Shown: piece by piece, positions 9,565 to 38,465 of the stretch
How positions within the stretch are numbered: the stretch's first letter is position 1
Layout: every line of letters begins with the position of its first letter
Source: a virus
Taxonomy: Duplodnaviria; Heunggongvirae; Uroviricota; Caudoviricetes
Strand: one strand, 5' to 3'
Length of the DNA stretch: 64,000 bases
Virus record (IMG/VR): IMGVR_UViG_3300025896_000023
Translations under genes and position numbers: made by a program
The notes under the pieces: model-generated
What the model saw: only the letters and a program-made list of their open reading frames with translations
Database searches by the model: none
Told to the model about the DNA's origin: nothing

Positions 9565-9565
9565 T

Positions 9566-10279
9566 ATGCATTTTAAAGATCCAATAATAGAGTCAGGCAT
9601 CCAAGATATTAAATATCTAGCACCAATTCCAATATATCAACATCAATTTGAAGATGATGATTTCAGTAATAGAGTTTATGCATTTGGGTTTGAAACCTTA
9701 AATGAAAAACAAAAACAAATGGGACAAGAACTTCCAGGAAGATTTGATGATGAGAGGCAAGAAACATTCCAAGTATGGTATGACAGAGCAGATCAATGGG
9801 TAGAGGAAAATGAATTACAACCAATTGGCAGCAGATTTTGGACACCTCCTAATGATTTTTTAGATATTGATAATGTGGATGTTCATATAATTAGGCAAAG
9901 AATTGAAAATGGATATTTACATTTATTGAATTCTCTTGGATATTCACATGAATCAACTCCAATAATTACTGAAAGTTGGATGCAATATTATGATCCATAT
10001 AGCGGAAGAGGACATAATGCACATAATCACTGTAGATGGAGTGCAAGTGAAGCAAAACCAATGATGTTTAGTGGAGGTTACTACCTATCAGATGGATTAC
10101 CAATTAAAGACCATCCATACTCTGGAGTATTTGCGTTTCATATTAGAGGTATGAAATATTATATAAGACCCAAAAAAGGAATGTTAATTATTTGGCCTTA
10201 TGATATTATTCATTCTGTTGAGCCTTTTTATGGAGCAGAGCACCGATGTGTAATTAACTTTAATATACAACTCAAGTAA
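9566..10279 (+). CDS. putative 2OG-Fe(II) oxygenase-like protein
   Basis: C-terminal GMLIIWPYDIIHSVEPFYGAEHRCVINFN resembles the distal His plus Arg strand of phage 2OG oxygenases; HNAHNH upstream. Confidence 0.4.
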   Translation: MHFKDPIIESGIQDIKYLAPIPIYQHQFEDDDFSNRVYAFGFETLNEKQKQMGQELPGRFDDERQETFQVWYDRADQWVEENELQPIGSRFWTPPNDFLDIDNVDVHIIRQRIENGYLHLLNSLGYSHESTPIITESWMQYYDPYSGRGHNAHNHCRWSASEAKPMMFSGGYYLSDGLPIKDHPYSGVFAFHIRGMKYYIRPKKGMLIIWPYDIIHSVEPFYGAEHRCVINFNIQLK

Positions 10280-10839
10280 TGGAAAATATAGGATATGATA
10301 TTTTCGTTTTTAGAAAAAGTATTCCTTTTCAAACAATAGAATTATGTAATACTATTAGAAATGAATCCAACTCTGATGGAAGAATCGATGCTAACGATAT
10401 TTTAATGGAAAGCTTTAATAGTTTTATTAAAGAATTATATAATGATGTGATTCTAGATTATTTAAAAATATATGATGTAGAGAACGGAATAGGTTATAAC
10501 TCAAGTATTGATACCGTTAATGAAATTAAGGAGTATGTTAGTCCATTATGGCGAGAAGTATTTTTATTAAAATATTCTGAAACATATCCCATCTCTTATG
10601 AAAAAAACGTGCATTGGGATTTTTCTATGTTTACTATTGTCGGATGTTTAAACGATGAATTTGAAGGAGGTGAACTTGAATTTCCTAGGCAAGAAATAAG
10701 TGTTTTATTAAAAAAAGGAGATATTGTGATTTTTCCAGGAGGGTTAACCCATCCGCATTTTGTGAATAAAGTTACCAAGGGAGAGAGATATGTTATCGTT
10801 GGTCAAACCCTATATCCTGGCTTAAATAAAATAAAATAA
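10279..10839 (+). CDS. 2OG-Fe(II) oxygenase (prolyl-4-hydroxylase-like)
   Basis: VHWD (HxD) ... GGELEFP ... GDIVIFPGGLTHPHFVNKVTKGERYVI (distal His, Arg). Confidence 0.55.
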   Translation: MENIGYDIFVFRKSIPFQTIELCNTIRNESNSDGRIDANDILMESFNSFIKELYNDVILDYLKIYDVENGIGYNSSIDTVNEIKEYVSPLWREVFLLKYSETYPISYEKNVHWDFSMFTIVGCLNDEFEGGELEFPRQEISVLLKKGDIVIFPGGLTHPHFVNKVTKGERYVIVGQTLYPGLNKIK

Positions 10840-11886
10840 ATGAAAGTATATTGTACATTACCATTTACCAGAATGAAAATAAATTCTGATGGAGAATATC
10901 ATTCATGTTGCCACCAGAATATACATTATGGAAATATAATAAAGGAGGATATTACAATAAAGGAAGCATTTGATAAAGACATTATCAAAGATATTCAAAA
11001 TTCTATTTTAGGAAATAATTTACACGATGCTTGTAATACCCCTAGGTGTCCATTTTATTCAAAACGAAATGAATTAGATACGCTATTCATGAACGATGTA
11101 GAATATACGGACCAACCTATTGATTTTGAACTTTCATTACCATCTTCGCATTGTAATATAGGAGGAACAGACCCTACACCTGATACTGCATGCCCAATGT
11201 GCCCTAGGGCATCTGTGTCTTTTATTGAGCATGAACCATCCATTGATTTAATAGAAATAGTATTGGATAAATTAAAACCTATTATGAATAAGGTTAAAAT
11301 ACTAAATATACAGGGAATCGCTGAACCGTTTTGGAAAGGAAAAGTATTTGAAATTTTAAATAAATTAGATTTTAAAAAATATAGAAATGTTATACATTTT
11401 TGGAGTTTTACAAATGGAACAGTATTTGGAGATAAAATACAAGATAAATTTATAGAAATGGTAGGATTTGCTAGTTTAGGATTTTCAATAGATGCAGCAA
11501 CACCCGAAACGTATATTAAAGTAAGAAAATTAAATTACTTTAAAACTATTGAGAGAAATTTAAAAAAATATTTCGAAAAAACAAAGAATCTTAAAAATGA
11601 AAATGGTTGGTTACATTCGTTTACGACATATAATATCAATATGATAAATGTGCATGAAATGGAACAAATGGTCAGGTGGTCACATGGGATAGGGGCAGAT
11701 AGAACAGAATTTACATTAACATTTATAAGTGCTCCTGAAATTCCAATAGGTACCGAAAATATATGTAATAAAGATAATTGGCATATATTTTGGGAAGGAC
11801 AACAAAGGGCGATGCATGTTGCAAAGGAATTAAATTATAGTGTAACATTTTATGTTCCATTTCATGGAGGATTTTTAAATAATTAA
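10840..11886 (+). CDS. Cys-rich hypothetical protein
   Basis: 348 aa; CTLPF...HSCCHQ, CNTPRCPF, ACPMCP; no CxxxCxxC radical-SAM motif. Confidence 0.45.
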   Translation: MKVYCTLPFTRMKINSDGEYHSCCHQNIHYGNIIKEDITIKEAFDKDIIKDIQNSILGNNLHDACNTPRCPFYSKRNELDTLFMNDVEYTDQPIDFELSLPSSHCNIGGTDPTPDTACPMCPRASVSFIEHEPSIDLIEIVLDKLKPIMNKVKILNIQGIAEPFWKGKVFEILNKLDFKKYRNVIHFWSFTNGTVFGDKIQDKFIEMVGFASLGFSIDAATPETYIKVRKLNYFKTIERNLKKYFEKTKNLKNENGWLHSFTTYNINMINVHEMEQMVRWSHGIGADRTEFTLTFISAPEIPIGTENICNKDNWHIFWEGQQRAMHVAKELNYSVTFYVPFHGGFLNN

Positions 11887-11888
11887 TT

Positions 11889-12791
11889 ATGAGAGATTTT
11901 ATAGTTGCCAGGTCTTGGCGCACGTTTGACAAACAACAATTAGTTGCACTTACTGAAATATGTAAAATAATTGTTCAACAAGAAAGATATATTGATAATG
12001 CCGAAATACATTTAAATATTAATAATCCAAATCATGAAATGCAGGCAAAGGCATTTCAATTACTTCCCCCTGGTGTTAGTTTATTTTTTTATGATAACGC
12101 TGAACTTGAACAATACGTAAGGGATTGTGGAATTGAACCAGACATAGAAAAGTACAGAGAATGGGAATGGATATACCATATCATATTACACCATAAATTA
12201 TATCATGAAAGAGGTAATGATTACGTTTTAACATATGATGATGATATTTTATTTAATGATGTTGATTTTTCAGATATAGTACATTTCGTAACTACTAAAA
12301 TTCCATTTAGTATTGCGGATCAATTTGTTGATGCAGATAAACCAATGATGGGTAAACTTATTGAAAAATTTGGCAATGAATTATTTGAAAATTATTATCG
12401 ATGTCATGGTAATGATAAATCTGGAAACTCTGGTTTTATGGGATTTAACAACAGTACGATGTCTCTGTTTACTTCTAAGGAGGATTTTCAATGGTTGATT
12501 AATTCATTTATATATAAGAGATGGGACCACATGACGATGCAGGGTACATCATGGGACACCTATAAGGTATTAATACAGGAACAATCATTACTATCAATAT
12601 TAAATAGAGCGTATTCAAATACGGAACATATCATACTATTACATAGTGATGGGTATATTTTGACAACCGACATGGAATTAATGAAACAGAGTAAAATAAT
12701 GCATTTTATTTCAACTACAAAATATTCCGAAGAATACACGCAACTTATTGAGAATAAGTATACTATATTACAAGAGGTATTTAAAATATAA
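11889..12791 (+). CDS. hypothetical protein
   Basis: 300 aa ORF followed by a terminator hairpin. Confidence 0.45.
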   Translation: MRDFIVARSWRTFDKQQLVALTEICKIIVQQERYIDNAEIHLNINNPNHEMQAKAFQLLPPGVSLFFYDNAELEQYVRDCGIEPDIEKYREWEWIYHIILHHKLYHERGNDYVLTYDDDILFNDVDFSDIVHFVTTKIPFSIADQFVDADKPMMGKLIEKFGNELFENYYRCHGNDKSGNSGFMGFNNSTMSLFTSKEDFQWLINSFIYKRWDHMTMQGTSWDTYKVLIQEQSLLSILNRAYSNTEHIILLHSDGYILTTDMELMKQSKIMHFISTTKYSEEYTQLIENKYTILQEVFKI

Positions 12792-17354: not shown

Positions 17355-18233
17355 ATGATAATATTAGATTTAGTTAACCCGGAAAAATCGCAAATCAAGT
17401 ACAAAATTAGTCAATTCCCAGATGGTCAACAAACAGTAGACCTTACAGAATGGAATGACTTATTGAGATATACTGATGCTGTAAAAATTAGCTCACGTTT
17501 AAATAGTTTTAAAGATTTAGAATTAATTATTTGTGCAACCACTGCGATCAGAAATATTAAACCTACCAGAGAAATTATCCTTTACGTTCCTTATTTTGTA
17601 GGTGCTCGTTCAGATCGCAAATTTAGCGAAGGTGGAGTTAATTATCTAAAACAGGTAATTTGTCCAATTATTAATTCTTTAAATTTTATAACTGTAATTA
17701 CGTTAGATCCACACTCTGATGTATTGGAAGCATGCTTGAATAACTATGAAAAATTAGATAATCACATACTAGCAAAATATGCACTTTCAAATATAGATAA
17801 TAAAAAAGATGCTCAAGAAAGAATTTGTTTAGTAAGCCCAGATGCTGGAGCATATAAGAAAATCTTTGATGTTGCTAAAAAGTTTGGAATTCAAAATGTT
17901 GTTACTGCAAATAAAGTAAGAGACATGAAAACTGGTAATATTCTTAAGACCGAGGTTCCAAACCTACCAGGAATTGTTGGAGATGATTTACAATATGTAA
18001 TCATCGATGATATTTGCGATGGTGGTAGAACATTTAATGAACTAGCAAAGGCAATTAGAGAACAACGAAGTGATGCAAAGATCTATTTAGTAGTAACCCA
18101 TGGTATCTTTAGCGCTGGATTTAAAGAATTATCACAATACTTCGAAGGAATTTATACAACAAATAGTTATCGAGAAGTTGCAGATAATGAATATGAAGAA
18201 AAAACAAACACAATAGTATTTAAAGTAATATAA
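17355..18233 (+). CDS. ribose-phosphate pyrophosphokinase (Prs) family protein; candidate ADP-ribose pyrophosphokinase
   Basis: PRPP-binding loop VIIDDICDGGRT; SPDAGAYKKIFDVAKKFG; length 292 aa; directly downstream of a promoter module. Confidence 0.6.
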   Translation: MIILDLVNPEKSQIKYKISQFPDGQQTVDLTEWNDLLRYTDAVKISSRLNSFKDLELIICATTAIRNIKPTREIILYVPYFVGARSDRKFSEGGVNYLKQVICPIINSLNFITVITLDPHSDVLEACLNNYEKLDNHILAKYALSNIDNKKDAQERICLVSPDAGAYKKIFDVAKKFGIQNVVTANKVRDMKTGNILKTEVPNLPGIVGDDLQYVIIDDICDGGRTFNELAKAIREQRSDAKIYLVVTHGIFSAGFKELSQYFEGIYTTNSYREVADNEYEEKTNTIVFKVI

Positions 18234-18445
18234 TGTATACTATAGATTCATTAACAACATTAGGATATGTTATAGAAATTAGTTTGGATAGAACAAGTAC
18301 TCCTAAATTCGCGTTTGACATATGGAAATATGAACACTTTGGAAATTATGAACTAATTAAAGTCAGAGAATGGTATTTATACCGAACATGGCAAGAAGCA
18401 TTTGAAGCAGCAGTAGAAGAATTAAAACACTTAAATTTAATATAA
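18233..18445 (+). CDS. hypothetical protein
   Basis: 70 aa; ATGT overlap with Prs-like gene. Confidence 0.35.
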   Translation: MYTIDSLTTLGYVIEISLDRTSTPKFAFDIWKYEHFGNYELIKVREWYLYRTWQEAFEAAVEELKHLNLI

Positions 18446-18556
18446 AAATGAATAAAGAAATTAAAACAGAAACAACGGACCAATTAGTATTAGTTCATGA
18501 TGTAATTTTAGGCTCAAGATATGAGTTGCAATCGGTTGAAGTAGAGGCAGATCTAG

Positions 18557-19078
18557 GTGCTCCAGATGAAACTATTGATGAGCAATAGAGAATATCGAAT
18601 GTATGGCTTGGTACCTTATAACTTAAGCCCAATCCAACAAGGTATCCAATTTGGACATGCTGTGGTAGAATATGGAATTGAATTTATTGAAAACCAAGAA
18701 TACCAAGAATGGGCTAGAAGAGATAAAACTTTTATTATTCTAAACGGCGGTACTACTAATTCAAATACAATGAGATTAGGAACTCTTAACCAACATTATC
18801 ATGAATTAAATGACAATGGTATTAAAATTGGAGAATTTCATGAGCCAGATTTAGGAGATCAATTAACTGCAGTAGTTTTTATAGTTGATGATCGAGTATT
18901 TGACAAGGTAAATTGGCCAGACTTAGTTCCATTACAATTCAATAATGGATTTATGAATCCAGAAGACCTAGATGAGTACCGAAAAAATGAATTCGACGAA
19001 TGGAAGAAACAATTTGGAGATGATGCAGAGCAAATCGTATTCCTAAGATATTTTTTAAAAAACTTTAGATTAGCATAA
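18557..19078 (+). CDS. hypothetical protein, weak resemblance to PTH2-type peptidyl-tRNA hydrolase
   Basis: QQGIQFGHAVVEYG roughly matches the PTH2 AAQCxHA box; true start may be an internal Met. Confidence 0.3.
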   Translation: MLQMKLLMSNREYRMYGLVPYNLSPIQQGIQFGHAVVEYGIEFIENQEYQEWARRDKTFIILNGGTTNSNTMRLGTLNQHYHELNDNGIKIGEFHEPDLGDQLTAVVFIVDDRVFDKVNWPDLVPLQFNNGFMNPEDLDEYRKNEFDEWKKQFGDDAEQIVFLRYFLKNFRLA

Positions 19079-19079
19079 G

Positions 19080-19595
19080 ATGTATCAAGAAATAGAAGGT
19101 GATTTAATTGCTATGGCAAAACAAGGTAAGTTTGATGTAATTACACATGGTTGTAATTGTTTGTCAAATATGGGAGCAGGAATAGCACCTCAAATGGCAA
19201 AAGCATTTGGAGTTGATAAATTTGAAATGGAAACTTGGGGTGCAACAATCGAAAAACTAGGATGTATTGATTGGCAAACAGTAGTTCTTGGAGAAAATAC
19301 AATTTGGTCTTTAGAAGATTATAAGAACAATCGAGATGAACCAGAATTAGTAGTTGTGAATTCATATACACAATATAGATATGGTAAGAATCATAAAGAT
19401 GGAGTTGCTAAACCTATTGACTACGAAGCACTTACATTATGCATGCGTAAAATCAATAATAAATTTAATGGTAAACATATTGGACTTCCAAAGATTGGCG
19501 CCGGTTTGGCAGGTGGAGATTGGAATAGAATCAAACGTATTATTCAAACAGAATTAAAAGACATGAAAGTGTCAGTAATAATTTATAAACCATAG
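19080..19595 (+). CDS. Macro domain protein (ADP-ribose binding/hydrolysing)
   Basis: DVITHGCNCLSNMGAGIA matches the macro-domain nucleotide-binding loop. Confidence 0.6.
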   Translation: MYQEIEGDLIAMAKQGKFDVITHGCNCLSNMGAGIAPQMAKAFGVDKFEMETWGATIEKLGCIDWQTVVLGENTIWSLEDYKNNRDEPELVVVNSYTQYRYGKNHKDGVAKPIDYEALTLCMRKINNKFNGKHIGLPKIGAGLAGGDWNRIKRIIQTELKDMKVSVIIYKP

Positions 19596-19598
19596 AAA

Positions 19599-20084
19599 AT
19601 GAAAGTAACAGATAAACATGTATTTTTCTGGAATGGAATTTACTCACAATGGCATAAAGCACCAATGACAATTGACAAGATTGAATATAATTCTTGTGAA
19701 CAATACATGATGCATCAAAAGGCATTATTATTTGGAGATGAAGATATTGCAGAGCAAATTATGCAAGAAACGAATCCAAGAGAACAAAAGAAATTTGGCA
19801 GAATGATTAGAAACTTTGATAAAACTATTTGGGATAAAAATTGTTTGGCAATTGTTTATGAAGGAAACTTGGCAAAATTCAGACAAAATGCTGGATTAAG
19901 AGAAGAAATGTTAAATACTGGCGATCGTATCTTTGTAGAGGCTTCTCCATTAGATAATATTTGGGGTATTGGACTTGATGAAAATGCCGAAGGAATTGAT
20001 GATCCATCATATTGGTTAGGTTTAAATCTTTTAGGACAAGCATTAACTCTTGTAAAAAATCAAATTAAATCTGAAATAAGATGA
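19599..20084 (+). CDS. NADAR (YbiA-like) domain protein
   Basis: FFWNGIYSQWH...CEQYMMHQKALLFGD...NIWGIGLD signature. Confidence 0.65.
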   Translation: MKVTDKHVFFWNGIYSQWHKAPMTIDKIEYNSCEQYMMHQKALLFGDEDIAEQIMQETNPREQKKFGRMIRNFDKTIWDKNCLAIVYEGNLAKFRQNAGLREEMLNTGDRIFVEASPLDNIWGIGLDENAEGIDDPSYWLGLNLLGQALTLVKNQIKSEIR

Positions 20085-20365
20085 GACAATCAGGTAAAAC
20101 TACAAGATTAGTGGATGCTGCAGTTCAATATTTATTTGAACACGGATCTATTAGAATCTTAACAAACTCTGAAGTATTTGATAGAAATTCACTGAGAGGT
20201 TATAGACCAGAACAAGTCGATATGCTTTTAAAATTTATCGATCCAGATACTAGGCCAGATAATAGAGCACAACAGTATTTTATTGAAGCATTAGATAGAA
20301 GACTTGCAACCGAACATGGAGGAAGCACTGAAAGAATTAGTGCAACAGAATTTAAAGTAATTTAA
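20081..20365 (+). CDS. hypothetical protein
   Basis: 94 aa; 4-nt overlap. Confidence 0.4.
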   Translation: MRQSGKTTRLVDAAVQYLFEHGSIRILTNSEVFDRNSLRGYRPEQVDMLLKFIDPDTRPDNRAQQYFIEALDRRLATEHGGSTERISATEFKVI

Positions 20366-20517
20366 TATGAAAAGATTAGTAGAATTATTAGCACCATCGT
20401 ATTTAGGATTTGCTCTAGCCGCATTTGCGCATATCACATGGTATCAATGGGAATTTTATGCAATTATAGTTCCATTTTATATTTTAGTAAAAATAACGGA
20501 TTTTAATAAAGACGAAG

Positions 20518-21096
20518 ATGAGTAGAACAGAATTTCACACAGGAAAATTATATCCAGTCAAAATTGAAAATAGTCTGGAAGAAACTTGCAGAAGTATTGC
20601 AAAACGACATGATGTTGAACTAAGTGAAGATTGGCAAGAAGACTTTAGGGATGCTTTTGATGAGTATGCTACTAAGATAATAAGCCAACCCGAGGAGTAT
20701 TTTATTCATGGAGAAAATCTTTATAGAGTTATTGACCATATCGAATCAGACGATGATGAGTCCTTTATGAAACTTAGGCATAATGGAGATGGTAGTATTT
20801 CCTTTATTGGTCAATTCTATAATGGAGGTACATGTTTTTCCGAAATTTTAGAAGAATCATTAAATGATTTAAAACCAAGTTATCAAGTTCAGATTAAAGA
20901 AGCAGTTGACCATATTGTTGAAGTCCATGGAGTTGAACAACCTTTTACAATTCCAGGCGCTGGTAAATTAATCAAGGAATATATGAGCCTTGAAAAGGCT
21001 ATTGAATTATTTGAAGGTGCCAAGAATGAAGCTGCCGGAAATGCATTTAGATCTTCAGCGTATGAGGCAACACTAGAAACAATCTTAAAAGTATGA
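20518..21096 (+). CDS. hypothetical protein
   Basis: 192 aa acidic protein. Confidence 0.4.
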   Translation: MSRTEFHTGKLYPVKIENSLEETCRSIAKRHDVELSEDWQEDFRDAFDEYATKIISQPEEYFIHGENLYRVIDHIESDDDESFMKLRHNGDGSISFIGQFYNGGTCFSEILEESLNDLKPSYQVQIKEAVDHIVEVHGVEQPFTIPGAGKLIKEYMSLEKAIELFEGAKNEAAGNAFRSSAYEATLETILKV

Positions 21097-21274
21097 ACAA
21101 ATATAGAGTAGAATGTAGAATAGGTTCAAGCTGTACGATTAGAACAATTGAATGCAGAGAAATGACAATTAATGAAGGTTCATATTGTTTTTGGACCGGA
21201 GAATATGGAAAGACTAATAAATTAGTTTATGCATTTCCAATAATGAATTCCATAGTAGAAGGTATTCATGAAGA

Positions 21275-21356
21275 AAATTAACATAAAATTAACACTCGGG
21301 ATTTTCTAGTCTCGAGTTTTTTGTTTATATTTACATTATAATTAAAACAATAACAA
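21275..21356 (+). promoter_or_regulatory. class-B unit: AAAATTAACATAAAATTAACAC, terminator hairpin, TTTTTTGTTTATATTTACATTATAATTAAAACAA
   Basis: Upstream of Fpg/Nei-like gene. Confidence 0.45.
21295..21322 (+). terminator. rho-independent terminator
   Basis: CTCGGGA-TTTTCTAGT-CTCGAG then TTTTTTG. Confidence 0.5.
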
Positions 21357-22148
21357 ATGCCAGAATTAGCAGAACTTAGATTAACTTCAGAATATATTAA
21401 AACCGTTTCAAATGGTAGAGAATTTACACGAATAGAAAAAAGTCAAGCACATAAGGGTATTGAATTTTCAGCCCCATATCCTACATTTAAAATCAGTGCA
21501 AAAAGTAAAGGTAAGGAAATTGTTATGTATCTTTATCCGAATGAAGCAACACCAGTATATACTCCAATTCGAATGACAATGGGAATGTCAGGACATTTTC
21601 AACTCACCGAAACTGGTAAAGAAGCAAAGCATGCACATCTTAAATTTTATAGTACAGATGGTTATACATTGAGTTTTGTAGATGTAAGAAGATTTGGTAA
21701 ATGGAAATTAGGAGAAGAATGGTCAAGCAATAGAGGACCAGATCCAACTTTAGAATTTCAAAACTTTGTTAGAAATGTTAAAGAAAATTTACATAAAAAA
21801 GATTTTGACAAACCTATTTGCGAGGTCTTAATGAATCAAAAATATTTCAATGGTATTGGTAATTATTTACGTGCCGAGATATTATATAGAGTAGATGTAA
21901 ATCCATTTATCAGTGCAAGAGAAGCCTTACAAGGTAATCCAGAAATATATCAACTATGTAAATGGGCACCAATGCAGGCCTATAAATTAGGAGGTGGCCA
22001 ATTAAAGGATTGGGAAAATCCATTTGGTAAAGAATCTGAGATGAAATCATGGTCGGAATTTATGAGATGCTATAACAATCCAAAAATGAATAAAGTAGTA
22101 GATACAAATAAAAGAACCTTTTGGTTCGATCCTAAATGGAACAAATAA
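21357..22148 (+). CDS. Fpg/Nei-family DNA glycosylase/AP lyase, apparently zincless
   Basis: N-terminal MPELAELRL (Pro2-Glu3); H2TH-like FNGIGNYLRAEILYRVDVNPF; no CxxC...CxxC at the C-terminus. Confidence 0.55.
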   Translation: MPELAELRLTSEYIKTVSNGREFTRIEKSQAHKGIEFSAPYPTFKISAKSKGKEIVMYLYPNEATPVYTPIRMTMGMSGHFQLTETGKEAKHAHLKFYSTDGYTLSFVDVRRFGKWKLGEEWSSNRGPDPTLEFQNFVRNVKENLHKKDFDKPICEVLMNQKYFNGIGNYLRAEILYRVDVNPFISAREALQGNPEIYQLCKWAPMQAYKLGGGQLKDWENPFGKESEMKSWSEFMRCYNNPKMNKVVDTNKRTFWFDPKWNK

Positions 22149-22158
22149 CTTTTAAATT

Positions 22159-22407
22159 ATGACAGATTTACAAAAATGGGAAGCAGTTAATCAATGCGAA
22201 ACTGCAAAAGAATTAGAAACCCTAATTCTAGAGAATTTTTCAGATGGTGAAGGAAAGATCCAAGGTCGATCTAGAAAGTTCGATACCGTTGAAATGCTAG
22301 TTGGTTTAACAATGTTTATGAAGAATCAAATGCACCCTAATATTCTTACTAGAGAGTTTGGTATTCGTCAACAGGCAATTTATTTGAAATCTGTTGAAAC
22401 AAATTAA
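22159..22407 (+). CDS. hypothetical protein
   Basis: 82 aa. Confidence 0.35.
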   Translation: MTDLQKWEAVNQCETAKELETLILENFSDGEGKIQGRSRKFDTVEMLVGLTMFMKNQMHPNILTREFGIRQQAIYLKSVETN

Positions 22408-22471
22408 GTAATACTTATATAATAACCATAACCAGCATCCAACTAACGAAGGTTGCACAATACCATATATT

Positions 22472-23272
22472 ATGAAAAACGATGCATTAGGCGATCGCAT
22501 GAAAGAGTTCTACGAAGATAGAACCAGAATCAAACTTCCAAGAAGAACTTACACAATTATTCGAATTGATGGTAAGGCATTCCACACTTACACTAAAGGA
22601 TTAACAAGACCATTTGATGAGGGTCTAATTGAAGACATGAATGCAACTACTGCATATTTATGTAAAAACATCCAAGGCGCTAAATTCGGTTATGTGCAAT
22701 CAGATGAGATTAGTTTAGTCTTAACAGACTTTGATGACTTAGGAACTCATGCTTGGTTCGACAACAACTTACAGAAAATGGTAAGTGTTGCTGCTTCTAT
22801 GGCAACTGCAGAATTCAATAAACTTAGGTTAATGCGATTCATGAAAGATAGCATGATCTTTTTAGAACCTGAAGATATTGGAAAATTCAAAATGGCTGAG
22901 TTCGACGCTAGAGCATTTCAAATTCCATTTATCGATGAGGTAGAAAACTATTTTATTTGGAGACAACAGGATGCTGTAAGAAATTCAATCTCTTCAGTTG
23001 CACAAAGTCTTTATAGTACTACAGAATTACATGGTAAAAAAACAAGTGATATGCAAGAATTGATCTTCCAGAAGGGAATTAACTGGAATGATTATGATTT
23101 TCGTTTGAAACGAGGCGCAATAATCGGAAAGGTAGAAGTTGTAACTACAACTAGCGATGTTAATTACACGAGAAATAAATGGCAAGTTATTGAAACTCCA
23201 ACATTTACTCAAGATAGATTTTTTATTAAAGGATTACTAAACACTAAAAAGAAAGAAAATGAATTGGTTTAA
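22472..23272 (+). CDS. Thg1-like 3'-5' nucleotidyltransferase (tRNA-His guanylyltransferase family)
   Basis: DRMKEFYED...LPRRTYTIIRIDGKAFHTYTKGLTRPFDEGL...YVQSDEISLVL matches Thg1 catalytic core blocks. Confidence 0.65.
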   Translation: MKNDALGDRMKEFYEDRTRIKLPRRTYTIIRIDGKAFHTYTKGLTRPFDEGLIEDMNATTAYLCKNIQGAKFGYVQSDEISLVLTDFDDLGTHAWFDNNLQKMVSVAASMATAEFNKLRLMRFMKDSMIFLEPEDIGKFKMAEFDARAFQIPFIDEVENYFIWRQQDAVRNSISSVAQSLYSTTELHGKKTSDMQELIFQKGINWNDYDFRLKRGAIIGKVEVVTTTSDVNYTRNKWQVIETPTFTQDRFFIKGLLNTKKKENELV

Positions 23273-23774
23273 AAGATTATTTGGAATTAAAGAAGTAGAA
23301 GTTCAACTCATGGAAAGAAAGGAAACCTATAATCCAATCAGTGGCACTTCTAAAACAAATGAGATAGATGGCCATGAAATTGCCAAACAAAGACTTATTA
23401 AGGAATTAAAAGGTTCTTTAGGAACAAAGGGTACTCCTGGAATAGGCGGAATACAATCTCAAGTAAATACTCAAACCAGAGTAATAGGTGCTAATGATTC
23501 TAATAATGACTACTTATCATTAATGGCAATTGCATCTATGGTAAATTCCAGTGATAATTCAAATACAATTGAAGAAACTACAGTCGGTACTGGATTCCAT
23601 GATGGAGGGTTTGGTGGTGGAGATTTCTCAGGTAGTGGTTCAGGAGGTTCATGGGAAGATAATAGCTCATCTAGCAATTCAAGTTCTTATGATTCTGGAA
23701 GCTCATATGATTCTAGTTCATCGAGTGATTCAAGTTCTTATGACTCAGGTTCATCTAGTTCCAGTGATTATTAG
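23259..23774 (+). CDS. protein with Ser/Gly/Asp low-complexity tail
   Basis: C-terminal SSYDSGSS repeats. Confidence 0.4.
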   Translation: MNWFKRLFGIKEVEVQLMERKETYNPISGTSKTNEIDGHEIAKQRLIKELKGSLGTKGTPGIGGIQSQVNTQTRVIGANDSNNDYLSLMAIASMVNSSDNSNTIEETTVGTGFHDGGFGGGDFSGSGSGGSWEDNSSSSNSSSYDSGSSYDSSSSSDSSSYDSGSSSSSDY

Positions 23775-23868
23775 AATTGTTAATAACTTTTTGAAAAGAA
23801 TTCACTAAAAGTTTTCAATATATCGAATATTATAGTTATATTTACATTATAATTAAAACAAACAAAAT
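23775..23868 (+). promoter_or_regulatory. full composite module copy
   Basis: AATTGTTAATAACTTTTTG ... GTTTTCAATAT ... TATATTTACATTATAATTAAAACAAACAAA. Confidence 0.55.
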
Positions 23869-24090
23869 ATGAAAACACTTTTAACAATTACAGTTCTAGG
23901 AATAGGATTATTATTTTTAGCAATCTATTATGAACAAGGAAGAGATCCTTATGAAGAAGGAATGCATTTGGATTATAAAATAGAAATAGTAAATGGCTTT
24001 GTATATAAGAGCCTAGATCGACATAGGGGAACAATACAAGTACTGAATTCCGATGGAACTCCATTGCGAGATGGTAAAAAAATATACTAA
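23869..24090 (+). CDS. small membrane protein
   Basis: 73 aa with one TM; follows a full promoter module. Confidence 0.4.
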   Translation: MKTLLTITVLGIGLLFLAIYYEQGRDPYEEGMHLDYKIEIVNGFVYKSLDRHRGTIQVLNSDGTPLRDGKKIY

Positions 24091-24122
24091 ATAATTCACA
24101 ATATAATTAAAAACAAACATAT

Positions 24123-25688
24123 ATGAACCCATTATTTTTAACAGACGGTTACAAAACAGGACATCACCAACAATATCCAAAAGGAACTACGTTGGTTTAT
24201 TCTAACTTCACTCCTCGTAGTAACAAGTATGCTCCTAAAGGTTGCGATCAATTAGTATCATTTGGTCAACAAATGGTAGTTAAACAAATTCACGAAGCAT
24301 TCGATAAAGATTTCTTTAGTAAACATAAAGACGAAGTTTGTGGAGAAATGAAACGCGAATTGTCAATGTACTTAAATACTGACTATGATGTTAGTCACTT
24401 TGAAGCTTTGCATGATTTAGGTTATTTGCCTATCATTGTTAAGTCAATTAAAGAAGGTAGTTTAGTACCAATGAGAGTTCCAGTATTGACAATTTACAAT
24501 ACACATCCAGATTTCTATTGGATTACAAACTATTTAGAAACAGTTATTTCTAACTTATTGTGGAAACCAATGACTTCTGCAACTATGGCGCATTCTTATC
24601 GTAAGTTATTTACTTCATGGCAAGAAAAAACCGATGCTGAAAAAGGTTGGTTCGTAGATTGGCAAGCACATGATTTCTCAATGAGAGGTTTAGATTCTAT
24701 TGATGCTACTATTAGTTCAGGTTTGGGTCACTTAACAAGTTTCTCAGGTTCAGACAGTTTACCAGCAATCTTTGGAGCAAGAAAATTCTATAATGAAACT
24801 GGATTTGTGTCCGGTTCGGTAAATGCAACTGAACATTCAGTTATGTGTGCTGGTAGTAAAGAAGATGAGGTTGGAACATTTAGAAACTTGATGGAAACAT
24901 ATCCAACTGGAATTCTTTCAATAGTCAGCGACACATGGGATCTTTGGAAAGTTTGTACCAGTCACTTAGTTATCTTAAAAGAAGAGATTTTAGCAAGAGA
25001 AGGTAAAGTAGTTATTAGACCTGACTCTGGAGATCCAGTCGATATTATTTGTGGATTAAATACACAACCAAAGGGTGTTAAAGGAACTAATGGACCTGGA
25101 CCAGAAGTTACTACAAATGCAGAATTGGACAAAGAACATCCTGCACAAAAAGGTGTTATTGAATTATTATGGGATGTATTTGGTGGAGAAATCAACGAAC
25201 AAGGTTATAAAGTATTAGATCCTCACATTGGAGCAATATATGGAGATTCAATCACATTAGACCGTGCTGAACAAATCTTTACAAGATTAGAAGCAAAGGG
25301 ATTCGCAAGTACAAACATAGTTTTAGGCGTAGGTTCATTTACATATCAATTTAACACAAGAGATACATTCGGGTTTGCAATGAAAGCCACTTATGTTGAA
25401 ATAAAAGAACATTTTAGAACAGTTAAAGACGAGAATGGTAATTATACACACTCTGAAGAAATCATTATAGGTCGTGAAATCTTCAAAGATCCAATCACCG
25501 ATGATGGTATTAAGAAATCTGCAAAAGGTTTATTAAGAGTTGTTGGAGATGAAACATGTATGTTATTAGAAGATCAATGTACATGGGACGATGAAGCTAC
25601 TGGTAAATTAAAGGTAATTTATAATAATGGTCAATTTGAAAACCAAACTACTTTGACAGAAATTCGTGAACGTTTAACAAATTCATAA
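24123..25688 (+). CDS. nicotinamide phosphoribosyltransferase (NAMPT/NadV) family; candidate nicotinamide ADP-ribose transferase
   Basis: MNPLFLTDGYKTGHHQQYP N-terminus and overall 521-aa NAMPT architecture. Confidence 0.8.
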   Translation: MNPLFLTDGYKTGHHQQYPKGTTLVYSNFTPRSNKYAPKGCDQLVSFGQQMVVKQIHEAFDKDFFSKHKDEVCGEMKRELSMYLNTDYDVSHFEALHDLGYLPIIVKSIKEGSLVPMRVPVLTIYNTHPDFYWITNYLETVISNLLWKPMTSATMAHSYRKLFTSWQEKTDAEKGWFVDWQAHDFSMRGLDSIDATISSGLGHLTSFSGSDSLPAIFGARKFYNETGFVSGSVNATEHSVMCAGSKEDEVGTFRNLMETYPTGILSIVSDTWDLWKVCTSHLVILKEEILAREGKVVIRPDSGDPVDIICGLNTQPKGVKGTNGPGPEVTTNAELDKEHPAQKGVIELLWDVFGGEINEQGYKVLDPHIGAIYGDSITLDRAEQIFTRLEAKGFASTNIVLGVGSFTYQFNTRDTFGFAMKATYVEIKEHFRTVKDENGNYTHSEEIIIGREIFKDPITDDGIKKSAKGLLRVVGDETCMLLEDQCTWDDEATGKLKVIYNNGQFENQTTLTEIRERLTNS

Positions 25689-25963
25689 TGAATAGACAAA
25701 ACTCACCAGTACCATTAATAATAGTAATTTTAGCTGCACTAGTAATCTTTATGGTTACTAGTTGCAAACCAGAAAATTATAAAGAACCTAATTATTCTAT
25801 TAATCAAGATAAATATGAACTAGATAGTAATTCACATTTTACCGATAAAGCTTATAAAATATATACATTAGAGGGTTGTGAATATATTGTAATAAGTACA
25901 GGTTCAGGTAAATGGGGTACACATAAAGGAAATTGTACAAATATAATTCATTCACTAAGATAA
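25688..25963 (+). CDS. small lipoprotein
   Basis: TM/signal then VTSCKP. Confidence 0.4.
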   Translation: MNRQNSPVPLIIVILAALVIFMVTSCKPENYKEPNYSINQDKYELDSNSHFTDKAYKIYTLEGCEYIVISTGSGKWGTHKGNCTNIIHSLR

Positions 25964-25964: not shown

Positions 25965-26441
25965 ATGGAAGTAATTAAACCAGAACCAAGAAACACATTC
26001 TATTTAGATAAACATACAAAAATATTTTTAGCAGGTTCTATAGAAATGGGAAAGGCAGAAGATTGGCAATCCATGATTCCTACTATATTTGAAAATAGAC
26101 AAGAACTTGTTTTCTTTAATCCTCGCAGAGATGATTGGGATAGTTCATGGGAACAAAATGAATCAAATCCTCAGTTTAACTATCAAGTTAATTGGGAATT
26201 AGATCATCTTGATGAAGCTGACTTAATTTTCATGTACTTCTCACCAGAAACCAAGAGTCCAATTAGTTTATTAGAACTTGGATTATATGCAAATTCTGGC
26301 AAAATGATAGTATGTTGCCCCGATACTTTTTATCGTAAAGGTAATGTAGATATTGTATGTAGCAAGTTTAATGTTCCTGTTTATAATACAATAGGATCAG
26401 CAATTGGTAGATTAAGAACAGAATTAAAAGATATAAAATAA
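25965..26441 (+). CDS. nucleoside 2-deoxyribosyltransferase-like (Rcl/DNPH1-like fold) protein
   Basis: KIFLAGSIEMGKAEDWQ...FNPRRDDW...ADLIFMYF...LLELGLYANSGKMIVC pattern. Confidence 0.45.
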   Translation: MEVIKPEPRNTFYLDKHTKIFLAGSIEMGKAEDWQSMIPTIFENRQELVFFNPRRDDWDSSWEQNESNPQFNYQVNWELDHLDEADLIFMYFSPETKSPISLLELGLYANSGKMIVCCPDTFYRKGNVDIVCSKFNVPVYNTIGSAIGRLRTELKDIK

Positions 26442-37683: not shown

Positions 37684-37756
37684 GGGGCTATGGTGAAATT
37701 GGTTATCACGCTGCCCTTGCACGGCTGTATTCAGAGTTCGAATCTCTGTAGCTCCA
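37684..37756 (+). tRNA. tRNA-Ala (anticodon TGC)
   Basis: Hand fold: acceptor GGGGCTA/TAGCTCC with G3-U70, D stem GTGA/TCAC, anticodon loop CTTGCAC, T arm CAGAG-TTCGAAT-CTCTG. Confidence 0.8.
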
Positions 37757-37940
37757 CTATATTTTTAAAGGATACGTTCAGCAAATTAAAAAACTTGATC
37801 TGTAAATTCAACAAAAAGTTATCCTGTAAAATATTAAAATGCTCGGGTGGTGAAACTAGTAGACACGCAATTAAATAATATTTAAAATTGTAAAAATATA
37901 GCACAGACGTAGATATATATAATAAACAAGTACTAATATT

Positions 37941-38375: not shown

Positions 38376-38377
38376 TC

Positions 38378-38457
38378 GCTCGGGTGATGAAATTGGTAAA
38401 CATGCACGACTTAAAATCGTGTGCGAAAGCTTGCGGGTTCGATTCCCGCCCCGAGTA
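38378..38457 (+). tRNA. tRNA-Leu (anticodon TAA), type II
   Basis: Acceptor GCTCGGG/CCCGAGT, anticodon arm CACGA-CTTAAAA-TCGTG, long variable arm, T arm GCGGG-TTCGATT-CCCGC. Confidence 0.7.
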
Positions 38458-38465
38458 CTATAAAT

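What the first reader, a model, noticed from the sequence alone, without database searches (positions are those of the whole stretch)
17355..25688. A Prs-like kinase and a NAMPT-like transferase with ADP-ribose-handling genes between them: candidate NAD+ reconstitution from ADP-ribose plus nicotinamide
Seen in the sequence: a PRPP-synthetase-family gene (17355..18233, PRPP loop VIIDDICDGGRT) and a full-length NAMPT-family gene (24123..25688) sit about 6 kb apart. Macro (19080..19595) and NADAR (19599..20084) genes lie between them. Established knowledge: host NADase defences (TIR, SIR2 or SEFIR effectors of Thoeris, DSR, CBASS and similar systems) deplete NAD+ to ADP-ribose and nicotinamide. 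Some phages rebuild NAD+ with a Prs-like enzyme that pyrophosphorylates ADP-ribose plus a NAMPT-like enzyme that joins nicotinamide. Others use NAMPT plus NMNAT. Inference: I saw no canonical NMNAT/Nudix gene in this window, so the Prs-like and NAMPT-like pair is the more likely route here. That would be a non-adjacent arrangement of such a pathway, sitting in an ADP-ribose-centred island. The LOG-family gene (40662..41315) and the deoxyribosyltransferase-like gene (25965..26441) could also feed this chemistry.
Basis: partly seen in the sequence, partly recalled or inferred. Interest (0 to 1): 0.8.

Follow-up and report, generated by a model that had tools for sequence, protein, structure and literature searches.

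The report
Spread-out phage NAD+ rebuilding pathway (NARP1)
This uncultivated large phage carries the two enzymes of the known NARP1 pathway, which rebuilds NAD+ from the fragments left by bacterial NAD+-destroying defences; they are pushed about 6 kb apart by inserted genes, so it is a real but already-described type of system in an unusual layout.

Summary
17355..18233 encodes an Adps-type ADP-ribose pyrophosphokinase. Its PP-loop DDICDGGRTF is identical to the Bas62/63-type Adps, and the catalytic Lys and adenine-contact Phe/Arg/Phe are present. It is only weakly similar to true Prs. 24123..25688 encodes a Namat-type nicotinamide ADP-ribose transferase. It carries the Namat-only motif GSFTYQFNTRD and scores 488 bits against the SpβL1 Namat crystal structure, versus 165-202 bits for true NAMPTs. 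Together these form NARP1 (Osterman 2024). The Macro gene (19080..19595) is a full-length homolog of the validated ADPR-1''-phosphatase Adpp of NARP1-AP (2026 preprint). No Nudix or NMNAT gene was found in the window; the only related nucleotidyltransferase is TagD-like. In 80 environmental relatives, every locus with enough upstream sequence has an Adps gene. The Adps-Namat gap ranges from adjacent (20 bp or less) to 9.4 kb, so the window is an insertion-expanded operon with 14 genes in between. The new elements are candidates only: NADAR, a PF15891 deoxyribosyltransferase-like gene and a 173-aa protein recur around NARP1 in this lineage in shuffled orders. The LOG gene is not linked. Only about a quarter of the probable ~236 kb genome was seen.

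The parts
17355..18233 (+). Adps-type ADP-ribose pyrophosphokinase (Prs-like), NARP1 step 1
   Evidence: PHROG 619 at 7e-69. It scores only 48 bits against solved Prs structures and 85 bits on the NCBIfam ribP_PPkin model, below the cutoff of 113. It is 40% identical to the Bas62/63-type Adps and 38% to ICP1 Adps. F21, R85, F90, H120, D163, K187 and the PP-loop DDICDGGRTF match the ICP1 Adps functional residues.
18233..18445 (+). 70-aa ORF of unknown function, conserved just downstream of Adps in some relatives
   Evidence: A homolog is present in 11 of 80 related loci, for example L026. No family match.
18557..19078 (+). 173-aa protein of unknown function (gene callers use a later start, giving 166 aa), recurrently placed between Adps and Macro
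19080..19595 (+). Macro-domain protein, probable Adpp (ADPR-1''-phosphate phosphatase) of NARP1-AP
   Evidence: PHROG 335 'phosphatase' at 8e-43. It is 32% identical over its full length (E 4e-20) to Cilsick gp173, which is 98.7% identical to the validated Gary Adpp. Homologs 54-58% identical are the only gene between Adps and Namat in L043 and L067.
19599..20084 (+). NADAR-domain N-glycosidase, starting 4 nt after the Macro stop
   Evidence: Pfam NADAR at 8e-50 and TIGR02464 at 150 bits. The catalytic E34/K41 pair has the same spacing as T4 AdfN E36/K43. It is 34% identical to the Justusliebigvirus NADAR group. It lies within 10 kb of Namat in 7 of 80 relatives, including the contiguous cluster in L037.
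20081..24090 (+). Inserted block of 9 ORFs that separates the pathway genes; not assigned to the pathway. It includes the Nei/NEIL1-like DNA glycosylase 21357..22148 and the Thg1-like protein 22472..23272
   Evidence: Pfam hits. Compact relatives such as L026, L043, L067 and L076 lack this block entirely.
21294..21317 (+). Terminator-like hairpin plus T-run in the intergenic gap; a possible transcript boundary between the Adps and Namat halves
   Evidence: a 10-bp stem followed by TTTTTGTTTA. The region's count of such sites is not above chance, so this is only a lead.
24123..25688 (+). Namat-type nicotinamide ADP-ribose transferase (NAMPT-like), NARP1 step 2
   Evidence: Scores 488 bits against SpβL1 Namat 9W5X/9W5W versus 165-202 bits against true NAMPTs. 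The SCH motif GSFTYQFNTRD (aa 404-414) and the SCL residues K35-Y36 fit the Namat signature, and the catalytic core is conserved. The SCH motif is intact in 80 of 80 relatives.
25688..25963 (+). 91-aa ORF with a hydrophobic N-terminus (signal/lipobox-like by eye), recurrently placed between Namat and the dRT-like gene
   Evidence: Homologs in 20 of 80 relatives, for example L026, L016 and L012. Function unknown.
25965..26441 (+). PF15891 nucleoside 2-deoxyribosyltransferase-like protein; candidate lineage-specific NARP1 accessory
   Evidence: Pfam at 2.4e-36. The only PDB homolog is the uncharacterised 4mcj. It has an SLLELG motif with a candidate catalytic Glu. After Adps it is the most retained neighbour of Namat: 54 of 80 loci, and immediately flanking Namat in 26 of the 49 loci with 3 kb or more on both sides. 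In L076 and L047 it is the only gene between Adps and Namat. A more distant contiguous Adps-Namat-dRT set occurs in a Saprospiraceae MAG contig.

Best explanation
[quoted passage not shown] When a host NADase defence cleaves NAD+ into ADP-ribose and nicotinamide, the Adps-type enzyme (17355..18233) transfers the beta,gamma-pyrophosphate of ATP onto the 1'' position of ADP-ribose to make ADPR-PP. The Namat-type enzyme (24123..25688) then joins nicotinamide to ADPR-PP, regenerating NAD+ in two steps without NMN or an NMNAT. The Macro protein (19080..19595) most likely removes the 1''-phosphate from ADPR-1''-phosphate, the product of RES-type NADases, so that this product can also enter the pathway. 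Shown here: the family assignments, the residue-level signatures, the conserved linkage across relatives, and the fact that the 14 intervening genes are insertions into an operon that is compact in related phages. Inferred: all of the enzyme activities and the anti-defence role, which rest on experiments with homologs that are 32-54% identical.
For: Namat: 488 bits to the SpβL1 Namat crystal structures 9W5X/9W5W against 165-202 bits for bona fide NAMPTs. It has the Namat-specific SCH consensus GSXΦ1XΦ2XΦ3TRD as GSFTYQFNTRD, whereas RB43 Nampt has GGGLLQEVTRD, and the SCL has K35-Y36 at the stacking position. Identity is 36-49% to Namat of NARP1 phages against 26-29% to T4-like/jumbo Nampt. The SCH motif is intact in 80 of 80 relatives. 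Adps: the PP-loop DDICDGGRTF is identical to the Bas62/63-type Adps, whereas E. coli Prs has DDMIDTGGTL. K187 corresponds to the catalytic K185 of ICP1 Adps, and F21/R85/F90 correspond to the adenine contacts F18/R87/F92. Scores are 117-227 bits to phage Adps against 61 bits to E. coli Prs, and the protein falls below the NCBIfam Prs cutoffs. Linkage: Adps lies within 10 kb of Namat in 68 of 80 relatives, and in every locus with 4 kb or more of upstream sequence. Upstream gaps run from 20 bp to 9372 bp, and four loci have 0-12 bp between the alignments. Compact forms such as Adps-Macro-Namat (L067, L043) exist in the same lineage. Macro: 32% identity over the full length to Cilsick gp173, which is 98.7% identical to the validated Gary Adpp. 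No NUDIX or NMNAT was found in the window.
Against: No activity was measured here. Identity to the characterised enzymes is moderate: 38-40% for Adps, 38-54% for Namat and 32% for Adpp. The two core genes are 5.9 kb and 14 genes apart, outside the ten-gene criterion used to define NARP1 association, and a terminator-like hairpin lies between them, so co-expression is not shown. Namat enzymes keep PRPP-dependent NMN synthesis, so a contribution from conventional salvage cannot be excluded. The Macro family profile scores higher against BT1257, TARG1/OARD1 and SCO6735 than against Poa1p, its best NCBIfam match is DarG, and close homologs occur in phage regions with no NARP1 genes nearby. Its substrate is therefore uncertain. 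Only about 64 kb of a probable ~236 kb genome was seen.
Confidence: 0.82

Rival explanations
1. Ordinary nicotinamide salvage: a true PRPP synthetase makes PRPP, a true NAMPT makes NMN, and an NMNAT from the host or from elsewhere in the phage genome finishes NAD+. This would be NARP2-like logic.
For: Both proteins belong to the Prs and NAMPT superfamilies, and annotation pipelines call them that. Namat-type enzymes keep NMN-forming activity in vitro. About three quarters of the genome is unseen. A bacterial operon joins Adps-type and Namat-type genes with NadM-Nudix.
Against: The NAMPT-like protein has the adenine clamp that Nampt lacks, and it clusters with Namat rather than with NARP2-type Nampt. 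The Prs-like protein has the Adps donor-site loop instead of the ribose-5-phosphate-binding DTGGT loop, and it fails the Prs model cutoffs. No Nudix or NMNAT was found in 64 kb. The literature reports no phage with both NARP1 and NARP2.
Confidence: 0.07
2. The Macro-NADAR pair is not a feeder for NARP1. It is instead a separate counter-defence that strips ADP-ribose from phage DNA modified by DarT-type toxins (NADAR for guanine, Macro for thymine) and simply sits in the same anti-defence island.
For: Phage NADARs, including those of NARP1-carrying Bas60-62 phages, neutralise DarTG1 by de-ADP-ribosylating DNA. The window NADAR keeps the catalytic Glu/Lys and is 34% identical to that group. The Macro's best NCBIfam match is antitoxin DarG at 35 bits. 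The two genes are separated by 4 nt. This Macro subfamily occurs in more than 2,500 phage records, many more than carry NARP1, and in Cellulophaga phage phi4:1 it lies among replication genes.
Against: The Macro is closer to the validated Adpp (69 bits over the full length) than to DarG, where 35 bits compares with a cutoff of 250. Homologs of it are the sole gene between Adps and Namat in relatives. NADAR is near Namat in only 7 of 80 relatives, so the Macro and NADAR associations differ. This rival is plausible for NADAR and less so for Macro.
Confidence: 0.35
3. The recurrent neighbours (the PF15891 dRT-like gene, the 173-aa protein, the small ORFs and NADAR) are unrelated cargo kept near NARP1 only by shared ancestry of a hyperplastic early-gene region. 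They have no functional connection.
For: dRT homologs in three unrelated jumbo phages and in 22 of 25 bacterial loci have no NARP1 genes nearby. The reference NARP1 phages Bas62, ICP1, Cilsick and Lbo-JY46 lack it near the operon. The relatives all belong to one lineage, with Namat 68-89% identical. RNA-repair-type genes also recur in the same neighbourhoods.
Against: After Adps, dRT is the most retained neighbour (54 of 80, against 31 for Macro and 28 or fewer for any other gene) despite 44 distinct architectures among 49 loci. It takes different positions, either between Adps and Namat or downstream of Namat, and the cluster order is reshuffled in L037 and L062 while proximity is kept. A more distant contiguous Adps-Namat-dRT set exists, with Namat 52% identical.
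Confidence: 0.5

Closest known systems
NARP1 (Adps + Namat) of Bacillus phage SpβL1, Escherichia phage Bas63 and Vibrio phage ICP1 (Osterman et al. 2024, bioRxiv 10.1101/2024.02.11.579819; PMC12774641; PMC13586617)
   Same: The two enzyme families are the same, and so are the diagnostic residues: the Namat SCH/SCL clamp, the Adps PP-loop, the catalytic Lys and the adenine contacts. Both genes are on the same strand in the order Adps then Namat. Identity is 38-54%.
   Different: The genes are not adjacent. There are 14 called genes (5.9 kb) between them, beyond the ten-gene window used to score association, and possibly a terminator between the two halves. The host lineage is different: an uncultivated, roughly 30% GC, probably jumbo phage, likely of Bacteroidota.
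NARP1-AP (Adps-Adpp-Namat) of Vibrio phage Gary (Osterman et al. 2026, bioRxiv 10.64898/2026.01.28.702374)
   Same: A macrodomain protein homologous over its full length to Adpp sits downstream of Adps. In relatives of the window it is exactly the middle gene of a three-gene operon.
   Different: It is only 32% identical to the validated Adpp. In the window it is separated from Adps by three small ORFs and from Namat by 4.5 kb. It is immediately followed by a NADAR gene, which is not described for NARP1-AP.
RyDEP + NARP1 of mycobacteriophage DyoEdafos (bioRxiv 10.64898/2026.05.28.727677)
   Same: The concept is the same: an accessory glycosidase encoded next to NARP1 converts another NAD+-derived product into linear ADPR for the pathway. 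This is the model for how NADAR or the PF15891 protein could act here.
   Different: No RyR-domain protein was detected in the window. The candidate accessories here belong to other folds (NADAR, DrHyd-like), and no activity is known for them in this context.
NARP2 (Nampt + Nmnat-Nudix) of Vibrio phage KVP40, and T4-like phages such as RB43
   Same: It uses a NAMPT-superfamily enzyme to restore NAD+ during infection.
   Different: The window enzyme is only 27-29% identical to RB43 Nampt and has the Namat clamp rather than GGGLLQ. No Nmnat or Nudix gene is in the window, and a Prs-like Adps is present.
Bacterial NARP1 homologs (Paenibacillus foliorum pfNARP1 in PMC12774641; the Acinetobacter Adps-like/Namat-like/NadM-Nudix operon seen here)
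   Same: The Acinetobacter Namat-like protein is the best single match in the 'phages' collection (49% identity) and shares both motifs.
   Different: That operon is chromosomal and adds an NMNAT/ADPR-pyrophosphatase gene. The window is phage DNA without one.
AdfN and other orphan phage NADARs that counter DarTG1 (PMC11257639)
   Same: The window NADAR has the NADAR fold and the catalytic Glu/Lys pair, and it is related to the NADAR of the Justusliebigvirus group.
   Different: Here it is translationally adjacent to an Adpp-like Macro inside a NARP1 neighbourhood. Its substrate, DNA adduct or soluble ADPR derivative, is unknown.

Membership tests
Namat (NARP1 step 2) | Nampt-like catalytic core: Asp13', Tyr15', Phe189, Arg192, Asp215, Arg306, Asp308 (SpβL1 numbering) and the catalytic His | tested here: met
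   D8, Y10, F185, R188, D211, R299 and D301 align with these residues, and the ATEHSVM His is conserved.
Namat (NARP1 step 2) | [quoted passage not shown] | tested here: met
   GSFTYQFNTRD at aa 404-414, where F406 and F410 correspond to F392 and Y396. RB43 Nampt has GGGLLQEVTRD. The motif is conserved in 80 of 80 relatives.
Namat (NARP1 step 2) | SCL loop with Arg, Lys or Tyr at the third position, or the next residue, providing a stacking contact | tested here: met
   In TPRSNKY, K35 aligns with SpβL1 R40 and is followed by Y36, as in ICP1 and Bas62.
Namat (NARP1 step 2) | Closer to Namat than to PRPP-preferring Nampt | tested here: met
   488 bits to 9W5X against 165-202 bits to NAMPT structures. 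343-483 bits to Namat-type proteins against 154 bits to RB43 Nampt. No formal tree was built.
Namat (NARP1 step 2) | Prefers ADPR-PP over PRPP and makes NAD+ directly | not testable with these tools
   Needs an enzyme assay.
Adps (NARP1 step 1) | Conserved PRPS-like acceptor and catalytic residues: Arg87, His121, Asp161, Asp212, Asp213, Asp216, Lys185 (ICP1 numbering) | tested here: met
   R85, H120, D163, D218, D219, D222 and K187.
Adps (NARP1 step 1) | Remodelled PP-loop donor site, conserved among Adps and different from the Prs DTGGT loop | tested here: met
   DDICDGGRTF is identical to Bas62 Adps. ICP1 has DDICDGAASF and E. coli Prs has DDMIDTGGTL. 60 of 68 relatives have exactly this loop.
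Adps (NARP1 step 1) | Aromatic and Arg contacts to the adenine of ADPR (Phe18, Arg87, Phe92) | tested here: met
   F21, R85 and F90. Position 92 is Cys in Bas62 and Val in E. coli Prs.
Adps (NARP1 step 1) | Loss of the C-terminal α11-α12 module of PRPS | tested here: inconclusive
   From the start of the PP-loop to the C-terminus there are 75 residues here, 69-84 in reference Adps, and about 96 in E. coli Prs (316-residue chain 4s2u). The length is consistent with the loss, but no structure of this protein was modelled.
Adps (NARP1 step 1) | A Namat gene in the immediate vicinity (within ten genes in Osterman 2024) | tested here: not met
   14 called genes intervene. Linkage within 10 kb is nevertheless universal in relatives, and compact forms exist, so the spirit of the criterion is met but not the letter.
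Adps (NARP1 step 1) | Pyrophosphorylates ADPR to ADPR-PP | not testable with these tools
   Needs an LC-MS assay.
Adpp (Macro phosphatase of NARP1-AP) | Macro-domain protein homologous to the validated Gary Adpp | tested here: met
   32% identity over the full length, E 4e-20, to Cilsick gp173, which is 98.7% identical to the Gary protein. PHROG 335 'phosphatase' at 8e-43.
Adpp (Macro phosphatase of NARP1-AP) | Encoded within or next to the NARP1 operon (within two genes) | tested here: inconclusive
   In the window, three small ORFs separate it from Adps and 4.5 kb separates it from Namat. In relatives L043 and L067 the homolog is the only gene between Adps and Namat. The same subfamily also occurs in phage regions with no NARP1 genes nearby.
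Adpp (Macro phosphatase of NARP1-AP) | Yeast Poa1p is the closest characterised homolog | tested here: inconclusive
   With a HMMER profile, Poa1p scores 27 bits on the N-terminal part only, below BT1257 (57), TARG1/OARD1 (43) and SCO6735 (37). The paper used HHpred, which was not available here.
Adpp (Macro phosphatase of NARP1-AP) | Dephosphorylates ADPR-1''-phosphate | not testable with these tools
   Needs an assay.
NARP2 | PRPP-preferring Nampt plus an Nmnat (often fused to Nudix) in the same genome | tested here: not met
   The enzyme is Namat-type. There is no NUDIX domain, and the only HIGH-type nucleotidyltransferase (60729..61136) matches TagD/RfaE-II at 41-46 bits against 16-18 bits for NMNAT models, with no NMNAT among its PDB hits. 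The rest of the genome was not seen.
NARP3 | NadR-like bifunctional enzyme plus a PnuC-like transporter | tested here: not met
   Neither domain appeared in the window-wide Pfam scan.
Orphan phage NADAR (AdfN-like anti-DarT1) | NADAR fold with the catalytic Glu and Lys | tested here: met
   Pfam NADAR at 8e-50. E34 and K41 have the E-x6-K spacing of T4 AdfN E36/K43.
Orphan phage NADAR (AdfN-like anti-DarT1) | Removes ADP-ribose from guanine in DNA | not testable with these tools
   Needs an assay.

The most novel reading that the evidence does not exclude
In this lineage of large environmental phages, NARP1 may be the hub of a modular set of input adaptors. Besides the known Adpp phosphatase, these would be the PF15891 deoxyribosyltransferase-like N-glycosidase (sometimes the only gene between Adps and Namat), the NADAR and the 173-aa protein. 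Each would convert a further NAD+-derived product into ADPR or nicotinamide that NARP1 can reuse. Candidate substrates are N-glycosidically linked ADPR signals or adducts such as His-ADPR, cADPR variants or ADP-ribosylated nucleic acid. This would be analogous to RyDEP and would add new accessory enzyme classes to NAD+ reconstitution.
Probability: 0.2. Interest if true: 0.7.

Novelty: new member of a known kind. Interest (0 to 1): 0.35.

Why it matters
The result shows that NARP1 and NARP1-AP extend to a large, uncultivated lineage of low-GC big phages, probably with Bacteroidota hosts. It also shows that operon-adjacency rules, such as requiring the two genes within ten genes of each other, will miss members in which insertions have pulled the core genes apart. 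Surveys that rely on adjacency therefore undercount the pathway, and residue signatures (the Namat SCH motif and the Adps PP-loop) are a better detector. The series of relatives from compact to expanded gives a natural list of candidate accessory genes to test for new ways of feeding NAD+ breakdown products back into NARP1: the PF15891 dRT-like gene, NADAR and the 173-aa protein. The core finding itself is already explained by published work.

Tried and rejected
- Megablast of the 9.5 kb region against 50,697 phage records found nothing, so there is no close cultured relative.
- The sigma-70 promoter scan gave 56 sites against 55.4 expected and is uninformative. Terminator-like sites were also not enriched.
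- NMNAT candidate: the 135-aa CTP_transf_like ORF 60729..61136 was examined and rejected. It is TagD/RfaE-II-like, sits next to a cupin/Man-6-P isomerase gene, and has no NMNAT among its PDB hits.
- LOG gene 40662..41315 as part of the system: rejected for lack of linkage, since it is within 10 kb of Namat in 0 of 80 relatives.
- Macro substrate: the profile search against the PDB did not separate a phosphatase (Poa1p) from glycohydrolases (TARG1, DarG, SCO6735).
- dRT-like gene outside the lineage: no NARP1 genes nearby in CcrColossus, Alishewanella Slickus01 or Xanthomonas X1, nor in 22 of 25 bacterial loci. No paper links PF15891 or deoxyribosyltransferases to NARP1.
- The first ICP1 isolate I fetched had disrupted genes, so a second isolate was used for Adps.
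- The best 'phage' hit for Namat turned out to be a bacterial chromosome contig.
- No formal phylogenetic trees were built. Classification rests on diagnostic residues and score gaps.

Full report
**Observation.** The window is about 30% GC and almost entirely coded on the + strand.
- Prs-like, 17355..18233 (292 aa, with VIIDDICDGGRT)
- Macro, 19080..19595
- NADAR, 19599..20084
- NAMPT-like, 24123..25688 (521 aa)
- Deoxyribosyltransferase-like, 25965..26441
- LOG, 40662..41315

Profile scans agree with these labels. The identical gene order is found in an ENA metagenome contig (57.8 kb) and in a Logan run, so the layout is real. Gene callers place 14 genes between the two enzymes.

**What the NAMPT-like protein is.** The literature held here defines NARP1 as Adps plus Namat (bioRxiv 10.1101/2024.02.11.579819). 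A 2026 structural paper (PMC12774641) gives sequence rules that separate Namat from Nampt. The catalytic core is conserved, and there is an adenine "selectivity clamp" made of two elements. [quoted passage not shown] The other is an SCL loop whose third or fourth residue stacks on adenine.

The window protein has GSFTYQFNTRD at residues 404-414, and K35-Y36 at the SCL position. It also has the core residues D8, Y10, F185, R188, D211, R299 and D301. The Nampt of the T4-like phage RB43 has GGGLLQEVTRD at the same place.

Against the PDB, the best matches are 9W5X and 9W5W at 488 bits, which the paper identifies as SpβL1 Namat. Bona fide NAMPTs score 165-202 bits. Across 2,046 phage records there is a clear break. 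Proteins from NARP1-carrying groups (Staphylococcus phage K-like, ICP1, mycobacteriophages, phi92/Bas63 group) are 36-49% identical. Nampts of T4-like and jumbo phages are 26-29% identical. One unclassified Aeromonas phage protein lies in between at 32.6%.

**What the Prs-like protein is.** It resembles solved Prs enzymes only weakly (48 bits or less) and falls below the NCBIfam Prs cutoff (85 bits against 113). It is 40% identical to the Prs-like proteins of the Justusliebigvirus group that contains Bas63, where Adps was characterised.

The Adps structural paper (PMC13586617) names the functional residues of ICP1 Adps. In a local alignment the window protein has all of them:
- F21, R85 and F90 correspond to the adenine contacts F18, R87 and F92.
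- H120 and D163 are conserved.
- K187 corresponds to the catalytic K185.
- The PP-loop DDICDGGRTF is identical to that of Bas62 Adps. ICP1 has DDICDGAASF, and E. coli Prs has DDMIDTGGTL.

Its C-terminal tail is about 20 residues shorter than that of E. coli Prs. This is consistent with the loss of the α11-α12 module, but I did not model the structure. Blastp scores are 117-227 bits to phage Adps and 61 bits to E. coli Prs.

**Is there an NMNAT?** I scanned every + strand ORF of 95 aa or more against Pfam. There is no NUDIX domain, no NadR and no PnuC. One CTP_transf_like ORF (60729..61136, 135 aa, GNFDVLHPGY) needed checking. NCBIfam ranks RfaE domain II at 46 bits and glycerol-3-phosphate cytidylyltransferase at 41 bits, well above the NMNAT models at 16-18 bits, and those NMNAT matches cover only the N-terminal motif. 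Its PDB hits are ethanolamine-phosphate and glycerol-3-phosphate cytidylyltransferases over the full length, with no NMNAT. It also sits next to a cupin/mannose-6-phosphate-isomerase gene. I reject it as an NMNAT.

A protein identical to the window's dRT-like protein lies on a 235.7 kb contig. The genome is therefore probably jumbo-sized, and roughly three quarters of it was not visible to me.

**The layout in relatives.** A scan of IMG/VR returned 80 loci whose Namat is 68-89% identical, on contigs of up to 288 kb. Local tblastn with the window's proteins gave the following:
- An Adps homolog lies within 10 kb in 68 loci. All 12 exceptions had less than 4 kb of upstream sequence available.
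- In 61 loci Adps is upstream of Namat on the same strand, with gaps from 20 bp to 9,372 bp (10 under 300 bp, 25 from 300 to 1,500 bp, 15 from 1.5 to 4 kb, 11 of 4 kb or more). In six loci it is downstream, and in one the hits abut.
- Compact forms include Adps-Namat, Adps-Macro-Namat (L067, L043) and Adps-dRT-Namat (L076, L047).
- L026 has Adps-70aa-173aa-Macro-Namat-91aa-dRT. This is the window's gene set without the block 20081..24090.

The window is therefore an operon expanded by insertions. The inserted block holds a Nei/NEIL1-like glycosylase, a Thg1-like enzyme and small ORFs. The diagnostic motifs are conserved throughout the lineage: the Namat SCH motif in 80 of 80 loci, and the exact Adps PP-loop in 60 of 68. 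A hairpin plus T-run at 21294..21317 may end a transcript between the two halves, but such sites are not enriched in the region.

**The Macro gene.** A 2026 preprint (10.64898/2026.01.28.702374) describes NARP1-AP. In 15% of NARP1 phages a Poa1p-like Macro protein, Adpp, converts ADPR-1''-phosphate into ADPR. ADPR-1''-phosphate is the product of the RES-domain defence aRES. The validated example is Vibrio phage Gary.

The window Macro aligns end to end with gp173 of the sister phage Cilsick (32% identity, E 4e-20), which lies between Adps and Namat. Cilsick gp173 is 98.7% identical to the Gary protein. Homologs of the window Macro that are 54-58% identical occupy exactly that middle position in L043 and L067.

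There are also reasons for caution:
- A family profile scores BT1257 at 57 bits, TARG1/OARD1 at 43 and SCO6735 at 37, all above Poa1p at 27 and DarG at 22.
- The best NCBIfam match is DarG at 35 bits, far below its cutoff.
- The subfamily occurs in more than 2,500 phage records. These include Cellulophaga phages (48% identity), where it sits among replication genes with no NARP1 genes in the 30 kb examined.

I rate an Adpp-like role at about 0.6.

**The NADAR gene.** It starts 4 nt after the Macro stop. It has the catalytic E34/K41 pair with the same spacing as T4 AdfN E36/K43. It is 34% identical to the NADAR of the Justusliebigvirus group, whose Bas60 representative neutralises DarTG1 by removing ADP-ribose from DNA (PMC11257639). 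It is near Namat in only 7 of 80 relatives, although in L037 it lies inside a contiguous Namat-Adps-Macro-61aa-NADAR-dRT cluster. A 2022 survey had already noted Macro/NADAR/SLOG neighbourhoods and NADARs next to NadV/NadM in phages (PMC9503650). Anti-DarT1 activity is the better-documented role. Feeding NARP1 is possible but unsupported.

**The deoxyribosyltransferase-like gene.** This PF15891 protein has only one solved homolog, the uncharacterised 4mcj. It carries an SLLELG motif whose Glu may correspond to the catalytic Glu of this enzyme superfamily; that correspondence rests on my own recollection rather than a test here.

After Adps it is the most retained neighbour of Namat. It appears in 54 of 80 loci. 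Among the 49 loci with at least 3 kb on both sides, it immediately flanks Namat in 26, and those 49 loci show 44 distinct architectures. In some loci it is the only gene between Adps and Namat. A more distant contiguous Adps(33%)-Namat(52%)-dRT(56%) set occurs on a Saprospiraceae MAG contig.

Against a functional link:
- The reference NARP1 phages lack it near the operon.
- Three unrelated jumbo phages have it without NARP1 genes nearby.
- So do 22 of 25 bacterial loci.
- No paper in the searched library connects it to NARP1.

It is a lead, not a finding. The LOG gene shows no linkage at all (0 of 80).

**Verdict.** It is a new member of a published kind of system. What sets it apart is the dispersed gene order and a set of lineage-specific neighbours that are worth testing. 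All enzymatic steps are inferred from homologs and none was measured here.

Noticed in passing
window 17355..18233 and 24123..25688 (PHROG scan): PHROG family 12872 has a 547-position profile annotated as nicotinamide phosphoribosyl transferase. It matches the Adps-like protein over profile positions 10-223 and the Namat-like protein over positions 376-470. This suggests that natural Adps-Namat fusion proteins exist.
   Followed up: no
L004 (CAKLQF020000015.1, 'Acinetobacter phage MD-2021a'): By gene content, this record in the phage collection is a bacterial chromosome contig. It carries an operon of an Adps-type gene (DDICDGGATF), a Namat-type gene (GSFTYNYLTRD) and a bifunctional NMNAT/ADPR-pyrophosphatase gene. 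This is a bacterial combination of NARP1-type enzymes with NadM-Nudix.
   Followed up: partly
L003 and L006 (Vibrio phage ICP1 isolates 2019_Dha_H and 2017_Dha_W): Both isolates have an in-frame stop near the N-terminus of Namat (..THV*SNFTSRHGK..). The 2019 isolate also has a shortened Adps ORF. This could be natural inactivation of NARP1 or sequencing error.
   Followed up: no
window 60387..61136: A cupin/mannose-6-phosphate isomerase C-terminal domain gene is followed by a 135-aa TagD-like cytidylyltransferase with HPGY in place of the HxGH motif. This is probably a sugar-nucleotide or teichoic-acid-type module.
   Followed up: partly
window 21357..22148: A phage-encoded Fpg/Nei-family DNA glycosylase with a eukaryote-type Neil1 DNA-binding domain (Pfam PF09292 at 9.9e-09) sits inside the block inserted between Adps and Namat.
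   Followed up: no
window 224..964, 1518..1922, 22472..23272, 49036..49605: RNA-repair-type genes are scattered through the window: a CCA-adding enzyme, cREC_REC, a Thg1-like protein and HAD_SAK_2. In 17-22 of 80 relatives their homologs lie within 10 kb of Namat. NARP1 therefore sits in an RNA-repair/ADP-ribose-flavoured region. No KptA/Tpt1 or RNA ligase was seen in the window.
   Followed up: partly
window 37684..39271: A cluster of five tRNA genes: Ala-tgc, Leu-taa, Ser-tga, Arg-ccg and Asp-gtc.
   Followed up: no
L097 (Saprospiraceae MAG contig CALDYJ010000022.1) and L117 (Chitinophagales MAG contig): L097 carries a contiguous Adps-Namat-dRT set and L117 carries Namat-Band7-91aa-dRT, both on short contigs binned into Bacteroidota MAGs. 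These are probably phage or prophage DNA and hint at the host phylum.
   Followed up: partly
H213 (Tunturiibacter phage Tunturi_5, 166757..167146): The PF15891 homolog lies under a CDS annotated as MutT/NUDIX hydrolase, which may be a dRT-Nudix fusion.
   Followed up: no
L007 (Cellulophaga phage phi4:1, gp031-gp032): A PARP-catalytic-domain 'polymerase' gene lies next to a tRNA nucleotidyltransferase gene, in a phage whose Macro protein is the closest cultured-phage homolog of the window's Macro.
   Followed up: no
window 5275..12791: A run of large ORFs with few or no family matches (DUF6734-like proteins, two 2OG-Fe(II) oxygenases, a radical-SAM/SPASM protein) lies upstream of the island. 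It may be a modification or biosynthetic cluster.
   Followed up: no
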